Part shown: piece after piece, positions 6,381-63,392 of the stretch
Layout of the letters: each line of letters begins with the position of its first letter
Position numbering within the stretch: position 1 is the stretch's first letter
Source of the DNA: Bdellovibrionales bacterium
Lineage (GTDB): Bacteria > Bdellovibrionota > Bdellovibrionia > Bdellovibrionales > JAUICD01
Assembly: GCA_965203275.1 (NCBI GenBank)
Contig: OZ241865.1
Coordinates: forward strand, 768,001-832,000
Length of the DNA: 64,000 bases
Reading direction: 5' to 3'
Program-made: the position numbers and the translations under genes
Notes under the pieces: model-generated
Database searches by the model: none
Told to the model about the DNA's origin: nothing
The model's input: the letters and a program-made list of their open reading frames with translations, nothing else

Positions 6381-7281
6381 TTTCACTAAAAGTGGTCAAG
6401 CTTTCTAGGTTGCCAGCATTTAAGAAGGCGGTAGCCTTCGGCTGGCAACCAGAAAGTGACCAGAGGTCAGACCACTTTTAGTGAAACAACCCGGGATCCG
6501 GGATCTGGCAACCGGCATCAGGTCCTAAAACTGAACTTTTTCCTTAACATTTCACTCAAAATGAGCCACACCTCTGGTGTGTTTTTTGGTGTTGCCTGCA
6601 AAGGCTTTCGCCTTTGACAAAATAGGCAACACCTAAAAAATCCACTCATTTTGAGTAGGGGAGGATCCTTTTATTCTTTTACATCATGTTAAGGAAAATT
6701 TCTTTTATTACCTCAAGAGCAAGCAGTTTGCGATAAAGGAACTTTTTCCTTAACATGATGTTTATCCGGGATCTGGGATCCGGCAACCCGGCATCAGGTC
6801 CTAAAACTGAACTTTTTCCCTAACATCGTGTTAAAAAAACGAAGGGATCCTCTTTACTAAAAGTAAACGGACTTTTGAGGTTGCCAGCCTTTGATCGACG
6901 GCGGTAGCCGTCGGGCTGGCTACCCAAAAGTGACCAGAGGTCAGTTTACTTTTAGTGAGACAAACCCTTAACATGGTGTTAAAAGAGGAAAGGATCCTTC
7001 CTACTAAAAGTAAACGGACTTTTGAGGTTGCCAGCCTTTGATCGACGGCGGTAGCCGTCGGGCTGGCTACCCAAAAGTGACCAGAGGTCAGTTTACTTTT
7101 AGTGAGACAAACCCTTAACATCGTGTAAAGAGACGAGAGGATCCTCCCTACTAAAAGTAAACGGACTTTTGAGGTAGCCAGCCTTTGATCGACGACGAAA
7201 GTCGTCGGGCTGGCTATCCAAAAGCAACCAGAGGTTGGTTTACTTTTAGTGAACCAGAGGCATGATGCATTTTGAGTGAAA
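6381..7281. repeat. Modular repeat cluster (5 three-way-junction A units, hub motifs, heptamers)
   Basis: A units at about 6381, 6551 (inverted), 6855, 7003 and 7150; 147-bp periodicity of hub+A. Confidence 0.95.
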
Positions 7282-7289
7282 AAAAATAC

Positions 7290-7318
7290 TTGCTATAAAG
7301 AAGTAAATCCTATAATAT
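7290..7318 (+). promoter_or_regulatory. Putative sigma-70 promoter shared with the 60437 locus
   Basis: TTGCTA-N17-TAATAT; the 31-nt block is identical at 60436-60466. Confidence 0.5.
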
Positions 7319-7328
7319 GGCTTTCCTT

Positions 7329-60428: not shown

Positions 60429-60475
60429 AGAATCGCTTGCTATAAAGAAGTAAATCCTATAATATGACTTCCCTT

Positions 60476-62377
60476 ATGATGAAAAAATATTTTTTATGTT
60501 TATTTTTTGTAGTCAGTGTAATCAATATTGATGAGGTATTTGCCTTCCCTCAAGAAGACTGCCCTGGCGTTTTACTTACCACTTTGGATAAAGATCATCA
60601 AAGGTTCAGAGAGCTTTCACCAGAAGCTCAAAATATGCTCCAAATAGCTTCAATCATTGCTCAAGTGACACATAGCAATAACTCTATACCTGCAAAAGTG
60701 AATATTTATCATGTCCTGCTTGCAGCTTTGACAAAAATCCAATCAGCCAATGAGTCCATCCATCGTTTAAATTTAGAGGATTTAGCTGGTGATGGTGAAA
60801 ATAAAAGTGCATTATTTGTTGTTTTAGAAAGTTTAGGGATTTTAAGGGATTTTCAAAGATTTCTTTTAGAAGAAATAGGTTTAAATAGTAGCAACCCAGA
60901 GCCTTTTGAATTCCAGTCAGATGGATTACTTCTTCTCAATTTGAATGAAGCTGTATTGACATCGATAAAAATTGACTATGATGAAGAATTTGATCGCTTA
61001 TGGAATTTAGCCATTCGTGAGAAAGAAGAAGAGATCAGAAACATACATCGTCAAAATGGTCGGATTTTACAACTTAGTAATACAGAAGATGCAGTCAGGT
61101 ACATAAATATTAGGGATAAGACAAAACGATATGATAAGACTTTTCGGATTCCCACTTTTCCAGAACATTTCTTTTTAGCATCATTGAATGTTGATTCGTC
61201 CCCTTTTCATTTTCTATCAGAATATTTTAATGGTAAAACACCAGCTCAGATCAAAGATATACTTTTCCCACTGATAGATCAAGCTAGGCGAGCTTTTTGG
61301 AATTTTTCAAAAAAGAAGAAACATAATTCTTACACTAAAGAAGAAAAAGCACAGGCCATTGCTCTAGTTATTAAAAGAGAGAAAGAGATAGGAGTACTTA
61401 AGAAAGCCGTTGCAGAAATAGCAGTGCTAAAAAAGATTCCTTTCAATACTCTGAATACTTTGGTTCGAAAATATAAAAAAGAACATAAATTATCTAAGAG
61501 CCAAAAAACTTATTCTGAAGCAGAAAAAGAAGAAGCCATTCGTTTAGTTATTGAAAGAGAGAAAGAGATAGGACTTCTAAAAACTATAGTAGAAGTAGCA
61601 GAGGAAAAAAATATTCCTCACAGAACTCTAGGTAATTGGATTACAGCATATAGAAAAAAACATAAATTATCTAAGCTTCCTACTTACTCTGAAGCAGAAA
61701 AAACAGAGGCCATTAATCTAGTAATTGAAAGGAGTAAAGAGATAGGAGTTGAGAAGACTATTGTAGAGGTAGCAGAGAAAAAAAATATTTCTCACGGGAC
61801 TTTGAATGATTGGGTTTATAAATATAAAAGAGATCATAAATTATCTAAAAGTCCAAAAAAGTATTCTGAAGCAGAAAAAGAGGAGGCCGTTGCTCTAGTT
61901 ATTAAAAGAGAAAAAGAGATAGGAATAATCAAAGCCGTTACAGAAGTAGCAAAGCAGAGAAATATTCATTCCGGAACTCTATATAATTGGGTTAAAGCAT
62001 ATAAAAAGAAACACAAATTATCTAAGAGCAAAAAAACTTATTCTGAAAAAGAAAAAGCACAGGCCATTGCTCTAGTTATTAAAAGAGAGAAAGAGATAGG
62101 AGTACTTAAGAAAGCCGTTGCAGAAATAGCAGAGCTAAAAAATATTCCTGTCAACACTCTGAGTAATTGGGTTTTTAAACATAAAAAAGATCATAAATTA
62201 TCTAAGAACCAGAAAAAGTATTCTGAAGCAGAAAAAGAGGAGGCCATTGCTCTAGTTGTTAAAAGAGAGAAAGAAGTAAAAATTAGCAAAGCTATTGTAG
62301 AAGTAGCAGAGCAAACAGGGATTCCTGTCGGCACTCTGACTCATTGGTTTTATACATATAAGAAAAACAATAATTGA
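60476..62377 (+). CDS. Secreted Clp-N-like domain protein with 6 tandem IS3-OrfA/Psq-like HTH repeats
   Basis: Paralogous N-terminal part to 7329 (HVLLAALT, EKEEEIR, IPTFPEHFFLA, IDQAR); six 58-60 aa YSEAEKxxA..VAxxxxIxxxTLxxW repeats from 61331. Confidence 0.85.
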   Translation: MMKKYFLCLFFVVSVINIDEVFAFPQEDCPGVLLTTLDKDHQRFRELSPEAQNMLQIASIIAQVTHSNNSIPAKVNIYHVLLAALTKIQSANESIHRLNLEDLAGDGENKSALFVVLESLGILRDFQRFLLEEIGLNSSNPEPFEFQSDGLLLLNLNEAVLTSIKIDYDEEFDRLWNLAIREKEEEIRNIHRQNGRILQLSNTEDAVRYINIRDKTKRYDKTFRIPTFPEHFFLASLNVDSSPFHFLSEYFNGKTPAQIKDILFPLIDQARRAFWNFSKKKKHNSYTKEEKAQAIALVIKREKEIGVLKKAVAEIAVLKKIPFNTLNTLVRKYKKEHKLSKSQKTYSEAEKEEAIRLVIEREKEIGLLKTIVEVAEEKNIPHRTLGNWITAYRKKHKLSKLPTYSEAEKTEAINLVIERSKEIGVEKTIVEVAEKKNISHGTLNDWVYKYKRDHKLSKSPKKYSEAEKEEAVALVIKREKEIGIIKAVTEVAKQRNIHSGTLYNWVKAYKKKHKLSKSKKTYSEKEKAQAIALVIKREKEIGVLKKAVAEIAELKNIPVNTLSNWVFKHKKDHKLSKNQKKYSEAEKEEAIALVVKREKEVKISKAIVEVAEQTGIPVGTLTHWFYTYKKNNN

Positions 62378-62380
62378 TTG

Positions 62381-63392
62381 CTTCACTAAAAGTGGTCAGG
62401 CTTTCTAGGCGATGAGCATTTTGTCAAAGGCGGAAGCCTTTGCGGTCATTGTCCAAAAATGGCCAGAGGCCAGTTCACTTTGAGTGAAACTAACTCCCTA
62501 ACCCCACCCCCCCACCCTTCGATTCTGCTTTTCTATTTGTATGTTTTTTATGAGTGGAATGCGAAGGCAGGCTTCCGAAGTCCTCAACCTTCGCTTGCTT
62601 TTTTGGAGCAAGCAGGCTACGATAAAGAAACTTTTTCCTTAACATGGTGTTAAGAAATGAGGAGATCCTCCCTACTAAAAGTGGTCAAGCTTTCTAGGCG
62701 ATGACCATTTTATCGATGGCGAAAGCCATCGTGGTCATCGCCAGAAAGTGGCCAGAGGCCAGACCACTTTTAGTGAAACAACTCCTCCAGCCTACCTTCG
62801 CATCCCACTCATAATATTTATTTTTTGAAAGTTACGCAGAATCTAAAAAGAATAAAAAAAACAAAAAAACGAATGTCTTGTTTCCTTAACATGGTGTTGA
62901 TCTGGGATCCCGGGATCCGGGATCAAAATGAACTTTTTCCTTAACATGGTGTTCATCCGGGATCTGTGATCCGGCAACCCGGGATCAGAAGGAACTGTTT
63001 CCTTAACATGTAGTCAAAAAACAAAGGGTTCCTCCCTACTAAAAGTGGTCAGGCTTTCTAGGTGATGACCATTTTATCGACGTGAAGTAAACATCTTGTT
63101 TCCTTAACATCGTGTAAAGAGACAAGAGGATTCTTCCTACTAAAAATAAACGGATTTTTGAGGCAATCAGCCTTTGATCGACGGCGATAAGCCGTCGGGC
63201 TAACTGGTATTAAAAGGATATTTTCCTTAACATGGTGTCAAAAAATGAGGATATCCTCCTTCCTAAAATTGAACAAGCTTTTGAGGCAGTTAGCCTTTGA
63301 TCGACGGCGAGAGCCGTCGGGCTAACTGCCCAAAAGTAGCCAGAGGCTAGTTCAATTTTAGGGAAACAGCGGTGTGGCTCATTTTGAGTGAA
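62381..63392. repeat. Modular repeat cluster
   Basis: A units at 62385, 62674 and 63262; a B module split by hub+A; heptamers. Confidence 0.95.

What the first reader, a model, noticed from the sequence alone, without database searches (positions are those of the whole stretch)
6381..63392. ~100-nt dispersed element conserved in structure, not sequence: a three-way junction with full covariation (>30 copies)
Seen: the layout is ACT-P1(10)-N4-P2a(5)-bulged A-P2(10)-Y-rich bulge(6-7)-P2b(6-7)-GNNA-P2b'-P2'-P2a'-R-P3(5-6, CC-AGA-GG)-P1'-AGTGAAA. Each stem has many alleles whose partner arm changes with it. P1: AAAAGTAAAC, AAAAGTGGTC, CAAAATGAGC, CAAAGTGAAC, AAAAATAAAC, CAAAATAAAT, AAAATTGAAC. 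P2: TTGCCAGC, CGATGACC, CAATCAGC, CAGTTAGC, CATTGCTC, TGTTGCCT. P2b: CGACGGC, GAAGGC, CAAAGGC, GACAGC, CGACGAC, CAATGGC. P3: TGACC, TAGCC, CAGCC, CAACC, TGGCC, CACACC, CATGCC. P2a covaries TTTTG/CAAAA, TTTCT/AGAAA, TTTTT/AAAAA around the bulge. Inference: this much covariation among paralogues in one genome implies strong selection on, or templated repair of, a fold read by a protein. It is more complex than REP/RPE palindromes and conceptually like integron attC sites.
Basis: partly seen in the sequence, partly recalled or inferred. Interest (0 to 1): 0.88.

Follow-up and report, generated by a model that had tools for sequence, protein, structure and literature searches.

The report
Three-armed hairpin repeat between genes
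A 103-base stretch of non-coding DNA that always folds into the same three-armed hairpin, while its letters vary, is scattered more than a thousand times between the genes of an uncultured, probably host-associated bacterium; it is most likely a new, unusually elaborate kind of selfish palindromic repeat rather than a gene.

Summary
The window holds 37 full copies plus fragments (11.7% of its bases). The genome holds about 790 full and 570 partial copies (6.4%). All fold as the same three-way junction; 32 of 41 base pairs show compensatory changes.

This scan reported the same family twice before, elsewhere in this genome (e1-4382930, e1-3005467).

It matches no Rfam family. I found it only in the window's genus: 3 of 151 genomes of the order, and the third hit lies on contigs that look mis-binned from that genus.

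Most "covariation" comes from copies swapping whole helices. Identical junctions sit in unrelated flanks, and orthologous copies in two close relatives keep the scaffold but carry different, still-paired P2 and P3 arms.

One strand's fold is also favoured: among single mismatches, G·T outnumbers A·C 64 to 11.

Orientation, loop motifs and same-orientation nesting fit a DNA-level, REP/BIME-like selfish repeat better than an RNA gene, but no RNA data exist.

The genome has no HUH/Y1 transposase, reverse transcriptase, IS110 or TnpB gene, and its one full-length tyrosine recombinase gene (a second is only a 196-aa frame) is Xer-like, not an integron integrase. What moves the element is unknown.

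Verdict: a new variant of a known kind, of moderate to high interest.

The parts
6385..6484 (+). full three-way-junction (3WJ) module
   Evidence: cmsearch R1 103.2 bits
6552..6656 (-). full 3WJ module
   Evidence: 102.4 bits; folds as 3WJ
6856..6958 (+). full 3WJ module, first unit of a 147-nt-period tandem array
   Evidence: 113.1 bits; array seen
7003..7105 (+). full 3WJ module, tandem array
   Evidence: 113.1 bits
7150..7252 (+). full 3WJ module, tandem array
   Evidence: 113.0 bits
9816..9917 (-). full 3WJ module
   Evidence: 95.3 bits
10130..10244 (-). partial or variant copy
   Evidence: 45.7 bits; 3'-truncated unit by nhmmer
13298..13400 (-). full 3WJ module, next to a tRNA gene
   Evidence: 115.3 bits; tRNA at 13175-13264
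17181..17282 (-). full 3WJ module
   Evidence: 95.0 bits
17336..17438 (-). full 3WJ module
   Evidence: 109.7 bits
17454..17553 (-). full 3WJ module
   Evidence: 106.8 bits
20190..20291 (-). full 3WJ module
   Evidence: 91.1 bits
20312..20414 (+). full 3WJ module (best-scoring copy)
   Evidence: 118.7 bits; DNA fold -41 kcal/mol, z -12.9
20417..20505 (+). chimeric or 5'-truncated copy whose P2 arms come from different alleles
   Evidence: 33.7 bits; sequence read
20929..21031 (+). full 3WJ module, followed by three 3'-end fragments up to 21152
   Evidence: 114.8 bits; fragments read and listed
30308..30410 (+). full 3WJ module
   Evidence: 114.8 bits
30870..30972 (+). full 3WJ module
   Evidence: 113.8 bits
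35811..35915 (+). full 3WJ module, identical to the copies at 50646 and 51580
   Evidence: 105.1 bits; sequences
39540..39639 (-). full 3WJ module
   Evidence: 105.1 bits
39684..39786 (-). full 3WJ module
   Evidence: 115.2 bits
46688..46792 (-). full 3WJ module
   Evidence: 102.2 bits
46922..47022 (+). full 3WJ module
   Evidence: 100.0 bits
47188..47290 (+). full 3WJ module (CCT/AGG variant of the P1 foot)
   Evidence: 108.7 bits
47399..47498 (+). full 3WJ module
   Evidence: 103.7 bits
50646..50750 (-). full 3WJ module, on one side of a small 23S_rRNA_IVP-family gene
   Evidence: 105.1 bits; gene family
51580..51684 (-). full 3WJ module, on the other side of the same gene
   Evidence: 105.1 bits
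51904..52003 (+). 3'-truncated copy joined to the next unit's leader
   Evidence: 45.5 bits; T3 type
52026..52127 (+). full 3WJ module
   Evidence: 87.1 bits
52227..52326 (+). 3'-truncated copy
   Evidence: 44.2 bits
52349..52451 (+). full 3WJ module
   Evidence: 113.9 bits
52467..52567 (+). partial copy
   Evidence: 48.9 bits
52590..52689 (+). 3'-truncated copy
   Evidence: 44.2 bits
52712..52814 (+). full 3WJ module
   Evidence: 113.9 bits
52830..52934 (+). full 3WJ module
   Evidence: 107.2 bits
53602..53690 (-). 5'-truncated copy
   Evidence: 38.8 bits; T5 type
53693..53795 (-). full 3WJ module
   Evidence: 107.2 bits
56710..56814 (+). full 3WJ module
   Evidence: 102.7 bits
56859..56958 (+). 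full 3WJ module
   Evidence: 98.6 bits; folded
57496..57597 (+). full 3WJ module
   Evidence: 95.0 bits
59811..59912 (-). partial copy
   Evidence: 32.2 bits
60120..60222 (+). full 3WJ module
   Evidence: 112.4 bits
60326..60425 (+). full 3WJ module
   Evidence: 102.3 bits
62385..62487 (+). full-length chimera whose P1 arms come from two different alleles
   Evidence: 83.6 bits; sequence
62674..62776 (+). full 3WJ module
   Evidence: 117.4 bits
63262..63364 (+). full 3WJ module (CCT/AGG variant)
   Evidence: 112.7 bits

Best explanation
The element is the core module of a genus-specific family of non-coding, mosaic palindromic DNA repeats. In kind it is like REP/BIME elements and MITEs, but it is branched and far more elaborate.

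One unit is about 155 nt. It has a leader of about 50 nt: a small hairpin around CCTTAACAT, then a mini-palindrome centred on GGATCC that ends in YTAC. The 103-nt three-way junction follows, then a short GAAAC tail.

Shown:
- Units multiply and rearrange as DNA. There are tandem arrays, and truncated units are followed almost always by another unit in the same orientation. A few whole units sit inside loops of older units. Identical junctions occur at distant loci.
- Copies keep exchanging whole helical domains (the whole junction, the P2 arm, the P3 hairpin), with end points in the conserved scaffold. This is what makes each stem appear as many alleles, each with its matching partner.
- One particular strand's fold is favoured.

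Inferred:
- The exchange is gene conversion or replication template switching between copies.
- The favoured strand is used as single-stranded DNA, recognised by shape by a structure-specific enzyme that I could not identify.
- Orientation next to genes is filtered by selection, because the element carries terminator-like hairpins, mainly when read from its 3' side.
For: Abundance and place:
- 1,361 non-overlapping pieces cover 164,692 nt, 6.4% of the genome: 742 full units, 46 junctions without a full leader, 195 5'-truncated, 361 3'-truncated and 17 internal pieces.
- 628 of 659 regex copies lie outside ORFs of 100 aa or more, at similar density in all four kinds of intergenic region.

DNA-level growth:
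- Of the 361 3'-truncated units, 261 are followed by a full or truncated unit in the same orientation, 6 by a 5'-truncated piece in the same orientation, 4 by one in the opposite orientation and 90 by none.
- Whole units lie inside the P2 internal loop, the P2b tip or the P3 loop of older units.
- 17% of 59 tandem pairs are at least 95% identical.

Module exchange:
- 222 five-module combinations occur in 659 copies. Partner arms are more tightly associated (Cramer's V 0.87-0.96) than some linear neighbours (P1-J 0.72, J-P2a 0.50, P2a'-P3 0.66), but P2a-P2 (0.88) equals the P1 arms (0.87).
- Among 689 pairs of identical junctions more than 5 kb apart, identity ends within 2 nt after AGTGA in 417 and within 5 nt before ACT in 323.
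- At both orthologous loci compared between the congener G001 and about-90%-identical contigs, leader, P1 and P2a are kept. The P2 domain differs at 15 of 46 positions against 3 of 42 elsewhere, and both versions are fully paired. P3 is swapped too.
- The 'foreign' P2 domain is present, identical, at another G001 locus (read).
- Among 213 pairs of copies that differ at two positions, 26 differ at base-pair partners; about 1.7 are expected by chance.

One-strand selection:
- Single-mismatch variants are G.T-type 64 and A.C-type 11, p = 3e-10. In the congener and G004 contigs the counts are 24 and 7.
- The loop is GNNA with free middle bases.
- The bulge is A in 608 of 659 copies.

DNA rather than RNA:
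- The third loop base is a pyrimidine in 206 of 565 GNNA loops, so the loop is not GNRA.
- 539 of 659 copies carry GCGNNAGC, the 'mini-hairpin DNA' motif described in the abstract of PMC13037366. 845 of the genome's 984 occurrences of that motif lie in the elements.
- YTAC abuts the 5' foot in 621 of 659 copies.
- Between same-direction genes, copies are co-oriented 180 times and anti-oriented 166 times. After stop codons, 57% point against the gene.

Polar effect on transcription:
- The unit nearest a gene start is co-oriented 199 to 62.
- Terminator-like sites number 54, against 15.0 +/- 4.6 in shuffles, and nearly all lie inside elements.
Against: - No enzyme was found. The genome gives 0 matches to Y1/HUH, RVT_1 and IS110, and no credible TnpB: one 29-bit match inside a 1,365-aa frame. 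The one full-length tyrosine recombinase gene is Xer-like; a second match is only a 196-aa frame that I did not type.
- The one active IS (IS256 family, 8-bp target duplications) has unrelated ends.
- I saw no target-site duplication and no clean empty/filled site. Only a minority of the truncated units have their missing half downstream, so many 'insertions' may be deletions or template switches.
- There is no orientation bias relative to replication, which lagging-strand ssDNA transposons usually show. The origin and terminus come from a weak GC skew, and synteny is scrambled.
- G.T tolerance and GNNA loops fit RNA as well as DNA, and no RNA data exist.
- The exact GCGNNAGC motif is kept in only 12 of 56 distinct congener/G004-contig copies.
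- Gene positions are my own ORF calls, not an annotation.
- Only two orthologous loci were compared.
Confidence: 0.5

Rival explanations
1. It is a structured RNA. The top strand is transcribed, from a promoter in or before the leader or as part of neighbouring mRNAs. The three-way junction then works as an RNA: an mRNA stabiliser or insulator, a 5'-UTR element, or a small RNA. The fold is kept by selection on that RNA.
For: - Strand-specific wobble tolerance: G.T(U)-type 64 against A.C-type 11, and 24 against 7 in the congener and G004 contigs.
- A GNNA loop, a conserved bulged A and an asymmetric internal loop on the same strand.
- The copy nearest a gene start is co-oriented with the gene 199 to 62.
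- The RNA fold is very stable, z = -8 to -11.5.
Against: - There is no co-orientation between same-direction genes (180 against 166). After stop codons, 57% point the wrong way for read-through.
- Promoter-like sites are not enriched: 35 against 46.2 +/- 8.0 in shuffles.
- 36% of the loops break the GNRA rule.
- G.U cells are rare for an RNA family, about 1%.
- There are hundreds of truncated, nested and chimeric copies.
- There is no Rfam match, even at E = 1.
Confidence: 0.2
2. There is no function and no selection on the fold. The palindromes are kept complementary only by mutation mechanics: template switching within a hairpin during replication copies one arm from the other, and gene conversion between copies spreads the result.
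For: - Template switching is reported to create and repair perfect stems in one event (abstract of PMC8794818).
- Double changes at pair partners are about 15-fold over chance among near-identical copies.
- Every neighbouring module (leader hairpin, GGATCC mini-palindrome, spacer) is also a palindrome with co-varying arms.
- Both strands fold equally well.
Against: - A symmetric mechanism does not predict the 64:11 and 24:7 excess of G.T over A.C on one named strand.
- It also does not predict the invariant G...A loop ends, the bulged A, or the same architecture with different letters in a species whose genes are only 72-79% identical.
- Single differences are about 3.7-fold rarer per position in stems than in loops (74 on 82 paired against 71 on 21 unpaired positions). 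That may reflect correction or selection.
Confidence: 0.1
3. It is a host-serving structural site: a bidirectional transcription terminator or insulator, or a binding site for nucleoid proteins or gyrase, as proposed for E. coli BIMEs. It has been spread through intergenic DNA because it is useful there.
For: - Terminator-like hairpin plus T-run sites are 3.6-fold over shuffles and lie in the elements. P3 has T-runs on both strands, and the GGATCC palindrome has a T6 run on the bottom strand.
- Orientation is filtered near gene starts, 199 to 62.
- 95% of copies are intergenic.
Against: - Arrays of up to 13 pieces in one spacer, nested and broken copies, and 6.4% of a small genome are more than a terminator role needs.
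- The elements are as dense in divergent promoter regions as elsewhere.
- P3 stems of 5-6 bp are weak terminators. This is my own judgement, not a test.
Confidence: 0.1
4. It is a recombination site of an attC-like system. The folded strand is the substrate of a dedicated site-specific recombinase that shuffles the genes lying between elements, such as the multi-copy Rpn/YhgA-like, pilin-like, ankyrin and IVP genes.
For: - Elements lie within 300 nt upstream of 48-80% of the Rpn/YhgA-like genes and 58% of one pilin-like family, against 11% of all ORFs. They lie downstream of 78% of the IVP genes, against 12%.
- The units' 3' ends tend to face genes on both sides: adjacent pairs are -+ 131 times and +- 31 times.
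- Gene order is scrambled between congeners.
Against: - There is no integron integrase: 55 bits against a cut-off of 265. Only two Xer-like tyrosine recombinase genes exist in each congener.
- The elements flank ordinary housekeeping genes such as ppdK, dnaB, recA, leuS and ligA.
- The fixed distances to multi-copy genes may only reflect recent segmental duplication.
- A Transposase_31 gene in the G001-like contig has no element at its ends.
Confidence: 0.07

Closest known systems
REP / BIME / REPIN elements with RAYT (TnpA-REP) transposases (PMC2817692 and PMC3116915 seen as search listings with the start of the abstract; PMC3733652 abstract read)
   Same: Very abundant, intergenic, non-coding palindromes assembled into mosaics with other short modules. 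There are head-to-head pairs around a conserved spacer of about 36 nt. A tetranucleotide abuts one foot: YTAC, the complement of GTAR. The families are lineage-specific and differ between related species.
   Different: 103 nt and branched, not a 20-40-bp simple hairpin. No Y1/HUH gene exists in this genome; the congener's only one is IS200-type and has no element within 1.5 kb. Same-orientation neighbours (807) far outnumber inverted ones (162). The arms of head-to-head pairs are no more alike than random pairs. The elements are not concentrated downstream of genes.
IS200/IS605-derived palindrome-associated elements and their single-strand 'top strand' chemistry (from my own knowledge)
   Same: One strand's hairpins matter. 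A YTAC-type tetranucleotide lies directly 5' of the structure. I saw no target duplication.
   Different: No TnpA(Y1) or TnpB in the genome. There is one closed three-way junction rather than separate left-end and right-end hairpins. There is no bias towards one replication strand.
Integron attC sites (from my own knowledge)
   Same: Structure conserved while sequence varies. Extrahelical or asymmetric features mark one strand.
   Different: No IntI, no cassette array and no R-box-like core. The element is far more abundant and lies between housekeeping genes.
Bacterial MITE-like structured repeats such as Correia, ERIC, RPE, BOX and bcr1 (recalled; general review PMC3184786 seen only as a search listing)
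   Same: 100-160-nt non-coding repeats with strong predicted structure. They are modular and lineage-restricted.
   Different: No terminal inverted repeat with a target duplication and no partner IS; the IS256 ends are unrelated. The branched fold shows systematic covariation in all four helices of the model. Whole helices are exchanged between copies.
Mini-hairpin DNA GCGNNAGC and single-strand initiation signals of ssDNA phages (PMC13037366: abstract and section headings read)
   Same: The tip of P2b is exactly GCGNNAGC in 539 of 659 copies.
   Different: The exact motif is not kept in the congener. There is no replication-strand bias. It is only one small part of the element.

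Membership tests
Any Rfam RNA family | A match to a curated covariance model | tested here: not met
   Only two tRNAs reach gathering scores in the window. In 20200-21200 the only match at E <= 1 is a chance miRNA model, 19.8 bits against a gathering score of 111.
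REP (GTAG/CGTC-tagged) superfamily | Small (20-40 bp) simple palindrome (abstract of PMC3733652) | tested here: not met
   103-nt three-way junction with 41 base pairs in the model.
REP (GTAG/CGTC-tagged) superfamily | An unpaired GTAG or CGTC tag at one end | tested here: inconclusive
   CTAC (498) or TTAC (123) of 659 copies ends at the AC of the ACT foot. The complement is GTAG/GTAA, but half of it is paired and it lies on the other side of the hairpin from my recollection of REPs.
REP/REPIN-RAYT system | A RAYT (Y1 HUH) gene in the genome, flanked by the repeats | tested here: not met
   PF01797 gives 0 matches in G000, while the control finds it in 6 of 14 reference genomes. G001 has one IS200-type gene with no element within 1.5 kb.
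REPIN | Two inverted, near-identical repeats that move as a doublet | tested here: not met
   The 37 head-to-head full pairs have a median arm identity of 0.72, against 0.74 for random pairs.
BIME-like mosaic | A composite of palindromic units and conserved linker modules in intergenic DNA | tested here: met
   Leader hairpin, GGATCC palindrome, junction, heptamer blocks and a 36-nt spacer recur in many combinations. The regular alternation of orientation seen in E. coli BIMEs is not met.
Integron attC | An integron integrase and cassette arrays | tested here: not met
   TIGR02249 scores 55 bits against a cut-off of 265 on the only full-length tyrosine recombinase. The flanking genes are housekeeping genes.
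MITE | Terminal inverted repeats matching an autonomous IS, plus target-site duplication | tested here: not met
   The only multi-copy DDE element (IS256 family, 1,400 bp, 8-bp duplications) has unrelated ends. No duplication was seen at nested junctions.
Retroelement-derived repeat (SINE-like, retron, group II) | A reverse transcriptase in the genome | tested here: not met
   RVT_1 gives 0 matches in G000.
IS110-targeted or bridge-RNA systems | A DEDD IS110 transposase | tested here: not met
   PF01548 gives 0 matches in G000 and G001.

The most novel reading that the evidence does not exclude
The junction is a shape-coded, sequence-independent single-stranded-DNA element. A structure-specific enzyme outside the known HUH, tyrosine-recombinase and reverse-transcriptase classes recognises the three-way junction itself on one strand. 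It cuts at helix feet and loops, which both moves units and swaps whole helices between copies.

The candidate I would test first is the expanded family of 41 PD-(D/E)XK 'transposase' genes (PDDEXK_2 / Transposase_31, Rpn/YhgA-like). Its fold class includes junction-resolving nucleases, and its own mobile partner has never been defined. Both of those points are from my own knowledge.

If so, this would be a new mechanism of repeat mobility. It could also explain the branched palindromic repeats that this scan has noted in several other phyla.
Probability: 0.12. Interest if true: 0.85.

Novelty: new variant of a known kind. Interest (0 to 1): 0.6.

Why it matters
With more than a thousand paralogous copies, at least two diverged species and about eight alleles per helix, this family is a natural experiment on how base pairing is preserved. 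The data here point to wholesale exchange of helices, plus selection on one strand, rather than stepwise compensatory mutation. That bears on how covariation among repeats should be read: R-scape-type evidence alone would have called this a functional RNA.

The family also shows that REP-like repeats can be large and branched, and can thrive without any RAYT. This reopens the question of what moves them.

In practice, the family fills 6.4% of the genome and breaks short-read assemblies at every copy. Its contigs can be mis-binned into other genomes.

Tried and rejected
1. HUH/RAYT partner. PF01797 is absent from G000 and present in a non-carrier, G002. Rejected.
2. Reverse transcriptase, IS110, TnpB and integron integrase are absent.
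3. IS256 as the autonomous partner. Its ends are unrelated.
4. The HTH-array protein family as a binding partner. It occurs only in G000, not in the congener that also carries the element.
5. Phyletic link to Rpn/YhgA-like genes.
   - PDDEXK_2 seemed to track carriers. But the G004 'carrier' contigs tested, C4 and part of C11, are G001-like; contig C1 was not tested.
   - Transposase_31 is abundant in the non-carrier G003.
   - Heptamer blocks do not flank these genes beyond a weak excess.
   - I keep this only as a speculative lead.
6. The junction as an independent insertion next to a pre-existing leader. All 341 leader+YTAC sites are followed by a P1 arm. Rejected.
7. REPIN-like doublets. 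The arms are no more alike than random pairs.
8. Empty/filled sites.
   - G001 is too diverged and its gene order scrambled.
   - One G004-contig/G001 spacer gave no clean empty site.
   - The other loci compared show replacement and a fragment indel but no clean insertion.
9. Public runs. No RNA holder is listed. Contigs of four runs from three studies stop at the repeats and the strains are near-identical, so they give no polymorphism information.
10. Pattern scans of metagenome and viral contigs. The model was run on 92 loci (80 of the 118 metagenome loci plus all 12 viral loci); 0 contain the element.
11. Naming the organism. The first protein scan found nothing. The nearest RecA relatives are Bdellovibrionota/Myxococcota MAGs at 75% identity or less.
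12. Literature. Five searches found no description of this family or organism. Subscription journals are not covered.
13. Replication-strand bias. None was seen, but the origin and terminus are inferred from a weak skew.

Full report
**The observation**

The window is 37% G+C. It lies in a single-contig genome of 2,567,810 bp.

The motif AGTGAAA occurs 60 times, against 18.9 +/- 4.5 in shuffles. A regex that asks only for ACT ... CCAGAGG ... AG[TG]GA, and knows nothing of pairing, finds 36 full copies in the window. It finds 698 in the genome, 451 of them distinct, on both strands.

RNAalifold on 29 window copies predicts a three-way junction. There are 37 pairs, 22 of which change on both sides. 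It gives 68 matches in the window. Thirty-seven score 83.6-118.7 bits and eight are partial or chimeric at 32-49 bits. The other 23 score 20-26 bits: opposite-strand echoes of full copies, a few short fragments and degenerate copies.

Single copies fold as the junction with DNA or RNA parameters, on either strand, at z = -8 to -13.

On 114 copies (85 distinct) from this genome, a congener and the G004 contigs, 98.6% of cells pair and 32 of 41 pairs show double changes. The covariation score is 0.552, against 0.206 in shuffles (0 of 500 reach it) and at most 0.092 for slid partners. That alignment is fitted to the model. The pairing-blind regex set gives perfect arms in 505 (P1), 589 (P2a), 470 (P2) and 624 (P3) of 659 copies.

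The one correction is that roughly a quarter of copies have imperfect P1 or P2 arms, many of them chimeras of two known alleles.

**Size of the family and the real unit**

Conservation extends about 50 nt upstream of ACT and about 6 nt past AGTGA. The upstream part holds a small hairpin around CCTTAACAT and a mini-palindrome centred on GGATCC.

A profile of this unit of about 155 nt finds 1,361 non-overlapping pieces covering 164,692 nt, or 6.4% of the genome:

| Piece type | Count |
|---|---|
| Full units | 742 |
| Junctions without a full leader | 46 |
| 5'-truncated | 195 |
| 3'-truncated | 361 |
| Internal pieces | 17 |

In the window there are 61 pieces, 11.7% of its bases.

All 341 leader+YTAC sites found are followed by a P1 arm. 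Leader and junction therefore belong together. In 105 of 742 full units a block of GGGATCY heptamers precedes the leader.

Of 659 copies, 628 lie outside ORFs of 100 aa or more, at similar density in all four kinds of intergenic region. The ORF calls are my own.

**Where else it occurs**

No Rfam family matches.

The model finds the element in 3 of 31 relatives and in 3 of 151 genomes sampled across the order: G000, its congener G001, and G004 of a sister genus.

G004's 11 copies all lie on three small contigs. The two I tested are 85-94% identical and syntenic to G001. To G004's own congener G003, one shows no match and the other only one 67% match. They are best read as contigs of a third species of the window's genus that were binned into G004. 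Among the genomes searched, the family is therefore confined to one genus.

Genes of G001 are only 72-79% identical to G000 and their order is scrambled. Yet G001's copies have the same architecture with largely different letters. Even the 'invariant' ACT/AGT appears as CCT/AGG and CC-AGA-GG as CT-AGA-AG, and every helix stays paired.

**How the covariation arises**

Each helix has about eight common alleles. Five-module combinations number 222 in 659 copies. Partner arms are more tightly associated (Cramer's V 0.87-0.96) than some sequence neighbours (0.50-0.72), although P2a-P2 (0.88) is as tightly linked as the P1 arms.

Three results show that helices are exchanged as blocks.

- First, 95 groups of identical junctions hold 340 copies and give 689 pairs more than 5 kb apart. 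Identity ends within 2 nt after AGTGA in 417 pairs and within 5 nt before ACT in 323 pairs. Only a minority share the leader.
- Second, I compared two orthologous loci between G001 and the about-90%-identical G004 contigs.
  - At the first locus, leader, P1 and P2a are conserved. The P2 domain differs at 15 of 46 positions, against 3 of 42 in P1, J and P2a. P3 differs at 3 of 13. Both versions pair fully in P2 and P2b; one P3 version has a single G·T wobble.
  - The variant P2 domain is present letter for letter at another G001 locus, L122:17008-17110 on the minus strand (read).
  - At the second locus the P2 domain and P3 are again replaced inside a conserved scaffold. One species also has an extra 3'-end fragment of about 25 nt.
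  - Neighbouring tandem units carry the same species-specific allele, so they evolve in concert.
- Third, among 213 pairs of copies that differ at exactly two positions, 26 differ at base-pair partners, against about 1.7 expected. Most are A:T<->G:C switches at a few pairs.

Gene conversion or replication template switching, with end points in the conserved scaffold, explains all three results. It also explains the chimeras with mismatched arms.

Template switching within a hairpin, which can repair or create stems in one event (abstract of PMC8794818), remains a candidate for the origin of new alleles. I could not separate it from conversion.

**Selection on one strand**

Of 414 distinct parsed copies, 194 are perfect in P1, P2a, P2 and P3, and 102 have exactly one non-standard cell. 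Of those 102, 64 are G·T or T·G and 11 are A·C or C·A on the element's own strand (p = 3e-10). Chimeras and symmetric mutation would give equal numbers. The bias repeats in the congener and G004 contigs, 24 to 7.

The P2b loop keeps G...A while its two middle bases vary freely. The bulge is A in 608 of 659 copies. Single differences are about 3.7-fold rarer per position in stems than in loops.

So the fold of one named strand matters. A purely double-stranded or purely mechanical explanation is not enough.

**DNA or RNA**

Points for single-stranded DNA:
- The third loop base is a pyrimidine in 206 of 565 GNNA loops, so the loop is not a GNRA loop.
- 539 of 659 copies carry exactly GCGNNAGC, the extraordinarily stable 'mini-hairpin DNA' motif (abstract of PMC13037366). 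845 of the genome's 984 occurrences of it lie in the elements.
- YTAC abuts the 5' foot in 621 of 659 copies.
- Copies between same-direction genes are co-oriented 180 times and anti-oriented 166 times.
- Promoter-like sites are not enriched.
- G·U cells are rare.

Points for RNA:
- The wobble bias itself.
- The copy nearest a gene start is co-oriented with the gene 199 to 62, whereas after stop codons the split is 179 opposite to 141 same.

I read that orientation pattern as a filter rather than a function. Terminator-like hairpins with T-runs number 54, against 15.0 +/- 4.6 in shuffles, and almost all lie in the elements. There are more on the bottom strand: P3 and the GGATCC palindrome. A unit pointing against a gene between its promoter and start codon would be harmful. 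This is inference.

No RNA run is listed for this organism, so the question is open. I put DNA against RNA at about 0.5-0.6 to 0.2.

**Growth and arrangement**

Of the 361 3'-truncated units, 261 are followed by a full or truncated unit in the same orientation, 6 by a 5'-truncated piece in the same orientation, 4 by one in the opposite orientation and 90 by none. Some whole units sit inside the P2 internal loop, the P2b tip or the P3 loop of an older unit, with the older unit resuming afterwards. Examples are G000 86573-86887, 1258673-1258998 and 759834. In most cases the remainder is missing or belongs to another allele. I saw no target duplication.

Adjacent pieces are ++ 414, -- 393, -+ 131 and +- 31. 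Arrays therefore tend to diverge from a centre, with their junction ends facing the genes. The centre is often a conserved spacer of about 36 nt. The two arms around it are no more alike than random pairs, 0.72 against 0.74. The family is therefore not REPIN-like.

**The missing enzyme**

G000 has no Y1/HUH gene, no RVT_1, no IS110 and no credible TnpB. Its one full-length tyrosine recombinase gene is Xer-like; a second match is only a 196-aa frame that I did not type.

Its one clearly active IS, of the IS256 family (1,400 bp, 8-bp duplications), has unrelated ends. It has itself landed in two elements.

The genome does carry 41 Rpn/YhgA-like PD-(D/E)XK 'transposase' genes. Elements lie within 300 nt upstream of 25 of the 41, against 11% of all ORFs. 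One subfamily starts about 22 nt after an element's 3' end.

The link is weak, however. Other multi-copy genes show similar enrichment. A non-carrier genome has 16 such genes. A G001-like copy has no element at its ends. I keep it only as the boldest reading.

**Comparison and verdict**

The closest known kind is the REP/BIME/REPIN world and other structured MITE-like repeats. Membership in the REP-RAYT system fails on size, shape, the RAYT gene and doublet behaviour. Membership as an attC site fails on the integrase and the context.

Two earlier reports of this scan (e1-4382930, e1-3005467) described the same family elsewhere in this genome and reached a similar class. My tests agree. They add:
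- the one-strand wobble bias;
- the helix-bounded exchange shown on orthologous copies;
- the restriction to one genus once mis-binned contigs are recognised;
- a wider list of absent enzymes.

Notes from other genomes (not checked by me) suggest that branched palindromic repeats recur in several phyla. Five literature searches found no description.

I class it as a new variant of a known kind, with interest 0.6.

Noticed in passing
window 7317-9779 (+) and 60464-62377 (+): Proteins of 820 and 637 aa built largely from tandem repeats of about 72 aa that match transposase helix-turn-helix domains (HTH_Tnp_Tc3_2, HTH_Tnp_1, HTH_23). The family gives 34 matches in this genome and none in G001-G004. 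These look like arrays of DNA-binding domains of unknown target.
   Followed up: partly
window 12948-13023, 30006-30129, 50510-50601, 56585-56660: Runs of GGGATCY heptamers followed by a GGCAACCCGGCATCAG-like block. There are 299 such blocks in the genome. They precede 105 of 742 full units and flank 8 of 9 23S_rRNA_IVP-family genes upstream.
   Followed up: partly
window 51120-51425 (+): A 101-aa 23S_rRNA_IVP-family (four-helix bundle) gene, one of 9 copies of identical length. It lies between two identical junction copies (50646-50750 and 51580-51684) in a repeated unit of about 934 nt.
   Followed up: partly
window 17643-18095: A different repeat of about 300-440 nt, with more than 15 copies at 70-82% identity in the congener G001.
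   Followed up: no
window 20600-20760 and 57079-57096, 62576-62593: A third palindromic intergenic module (long hairpin with GCTTGC.../...GCAAGC arms). It is often adjacent to the junction units and supplies the conserved spacer of about 36 nt between head-to-head units.
   Followed up: no
genome-wide; e.g. G000:C1:945996-947078, 1247237-1248331, 1135829-1137040: 41 Rpn/YhgA-like PD-(D/E)XK 'transposase' genes (23 PDDEXK_2, 13 + 5 Transposase_31), often abutted by elements. There are also 60 ankyrin-repeat genes, and a Fic-domain gene at window 2677-3498.
   Followed up: partly
G000:C1:214394-215629 and 8 other copies (6 examined): An apparently active IS256-family element of 1,400 bp, with about 25-bp imperfect terminal inverted repeats and clean 8-bp target duplications. 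Two of the six examined sit inside junction elements.
   Followed up: yes
G004 contigs C4 (15 kb) and C11 (52.5 kb); C1 (12 kb) not tested: These contigs of a sister-genus genome are 85-94% identical and syntenic to G001, and match their own congener G003 poorly or not at all. They are probably mis-binned contigs of a third species of the window's genus.
   Followed up: yes
G001 loci L132:3528-3672, L130:489-606, L134:8707-8823: In the congener, the P3 loop is expanded by one to three tandem copies of a 14-nt unit beginning AGAGGCTCGCC.
   Followed up: no
window 11954-12619 (-): An ORF holding an array with an 18-nt period, 14 or more copies at 11995-12390.
   Followed up: no
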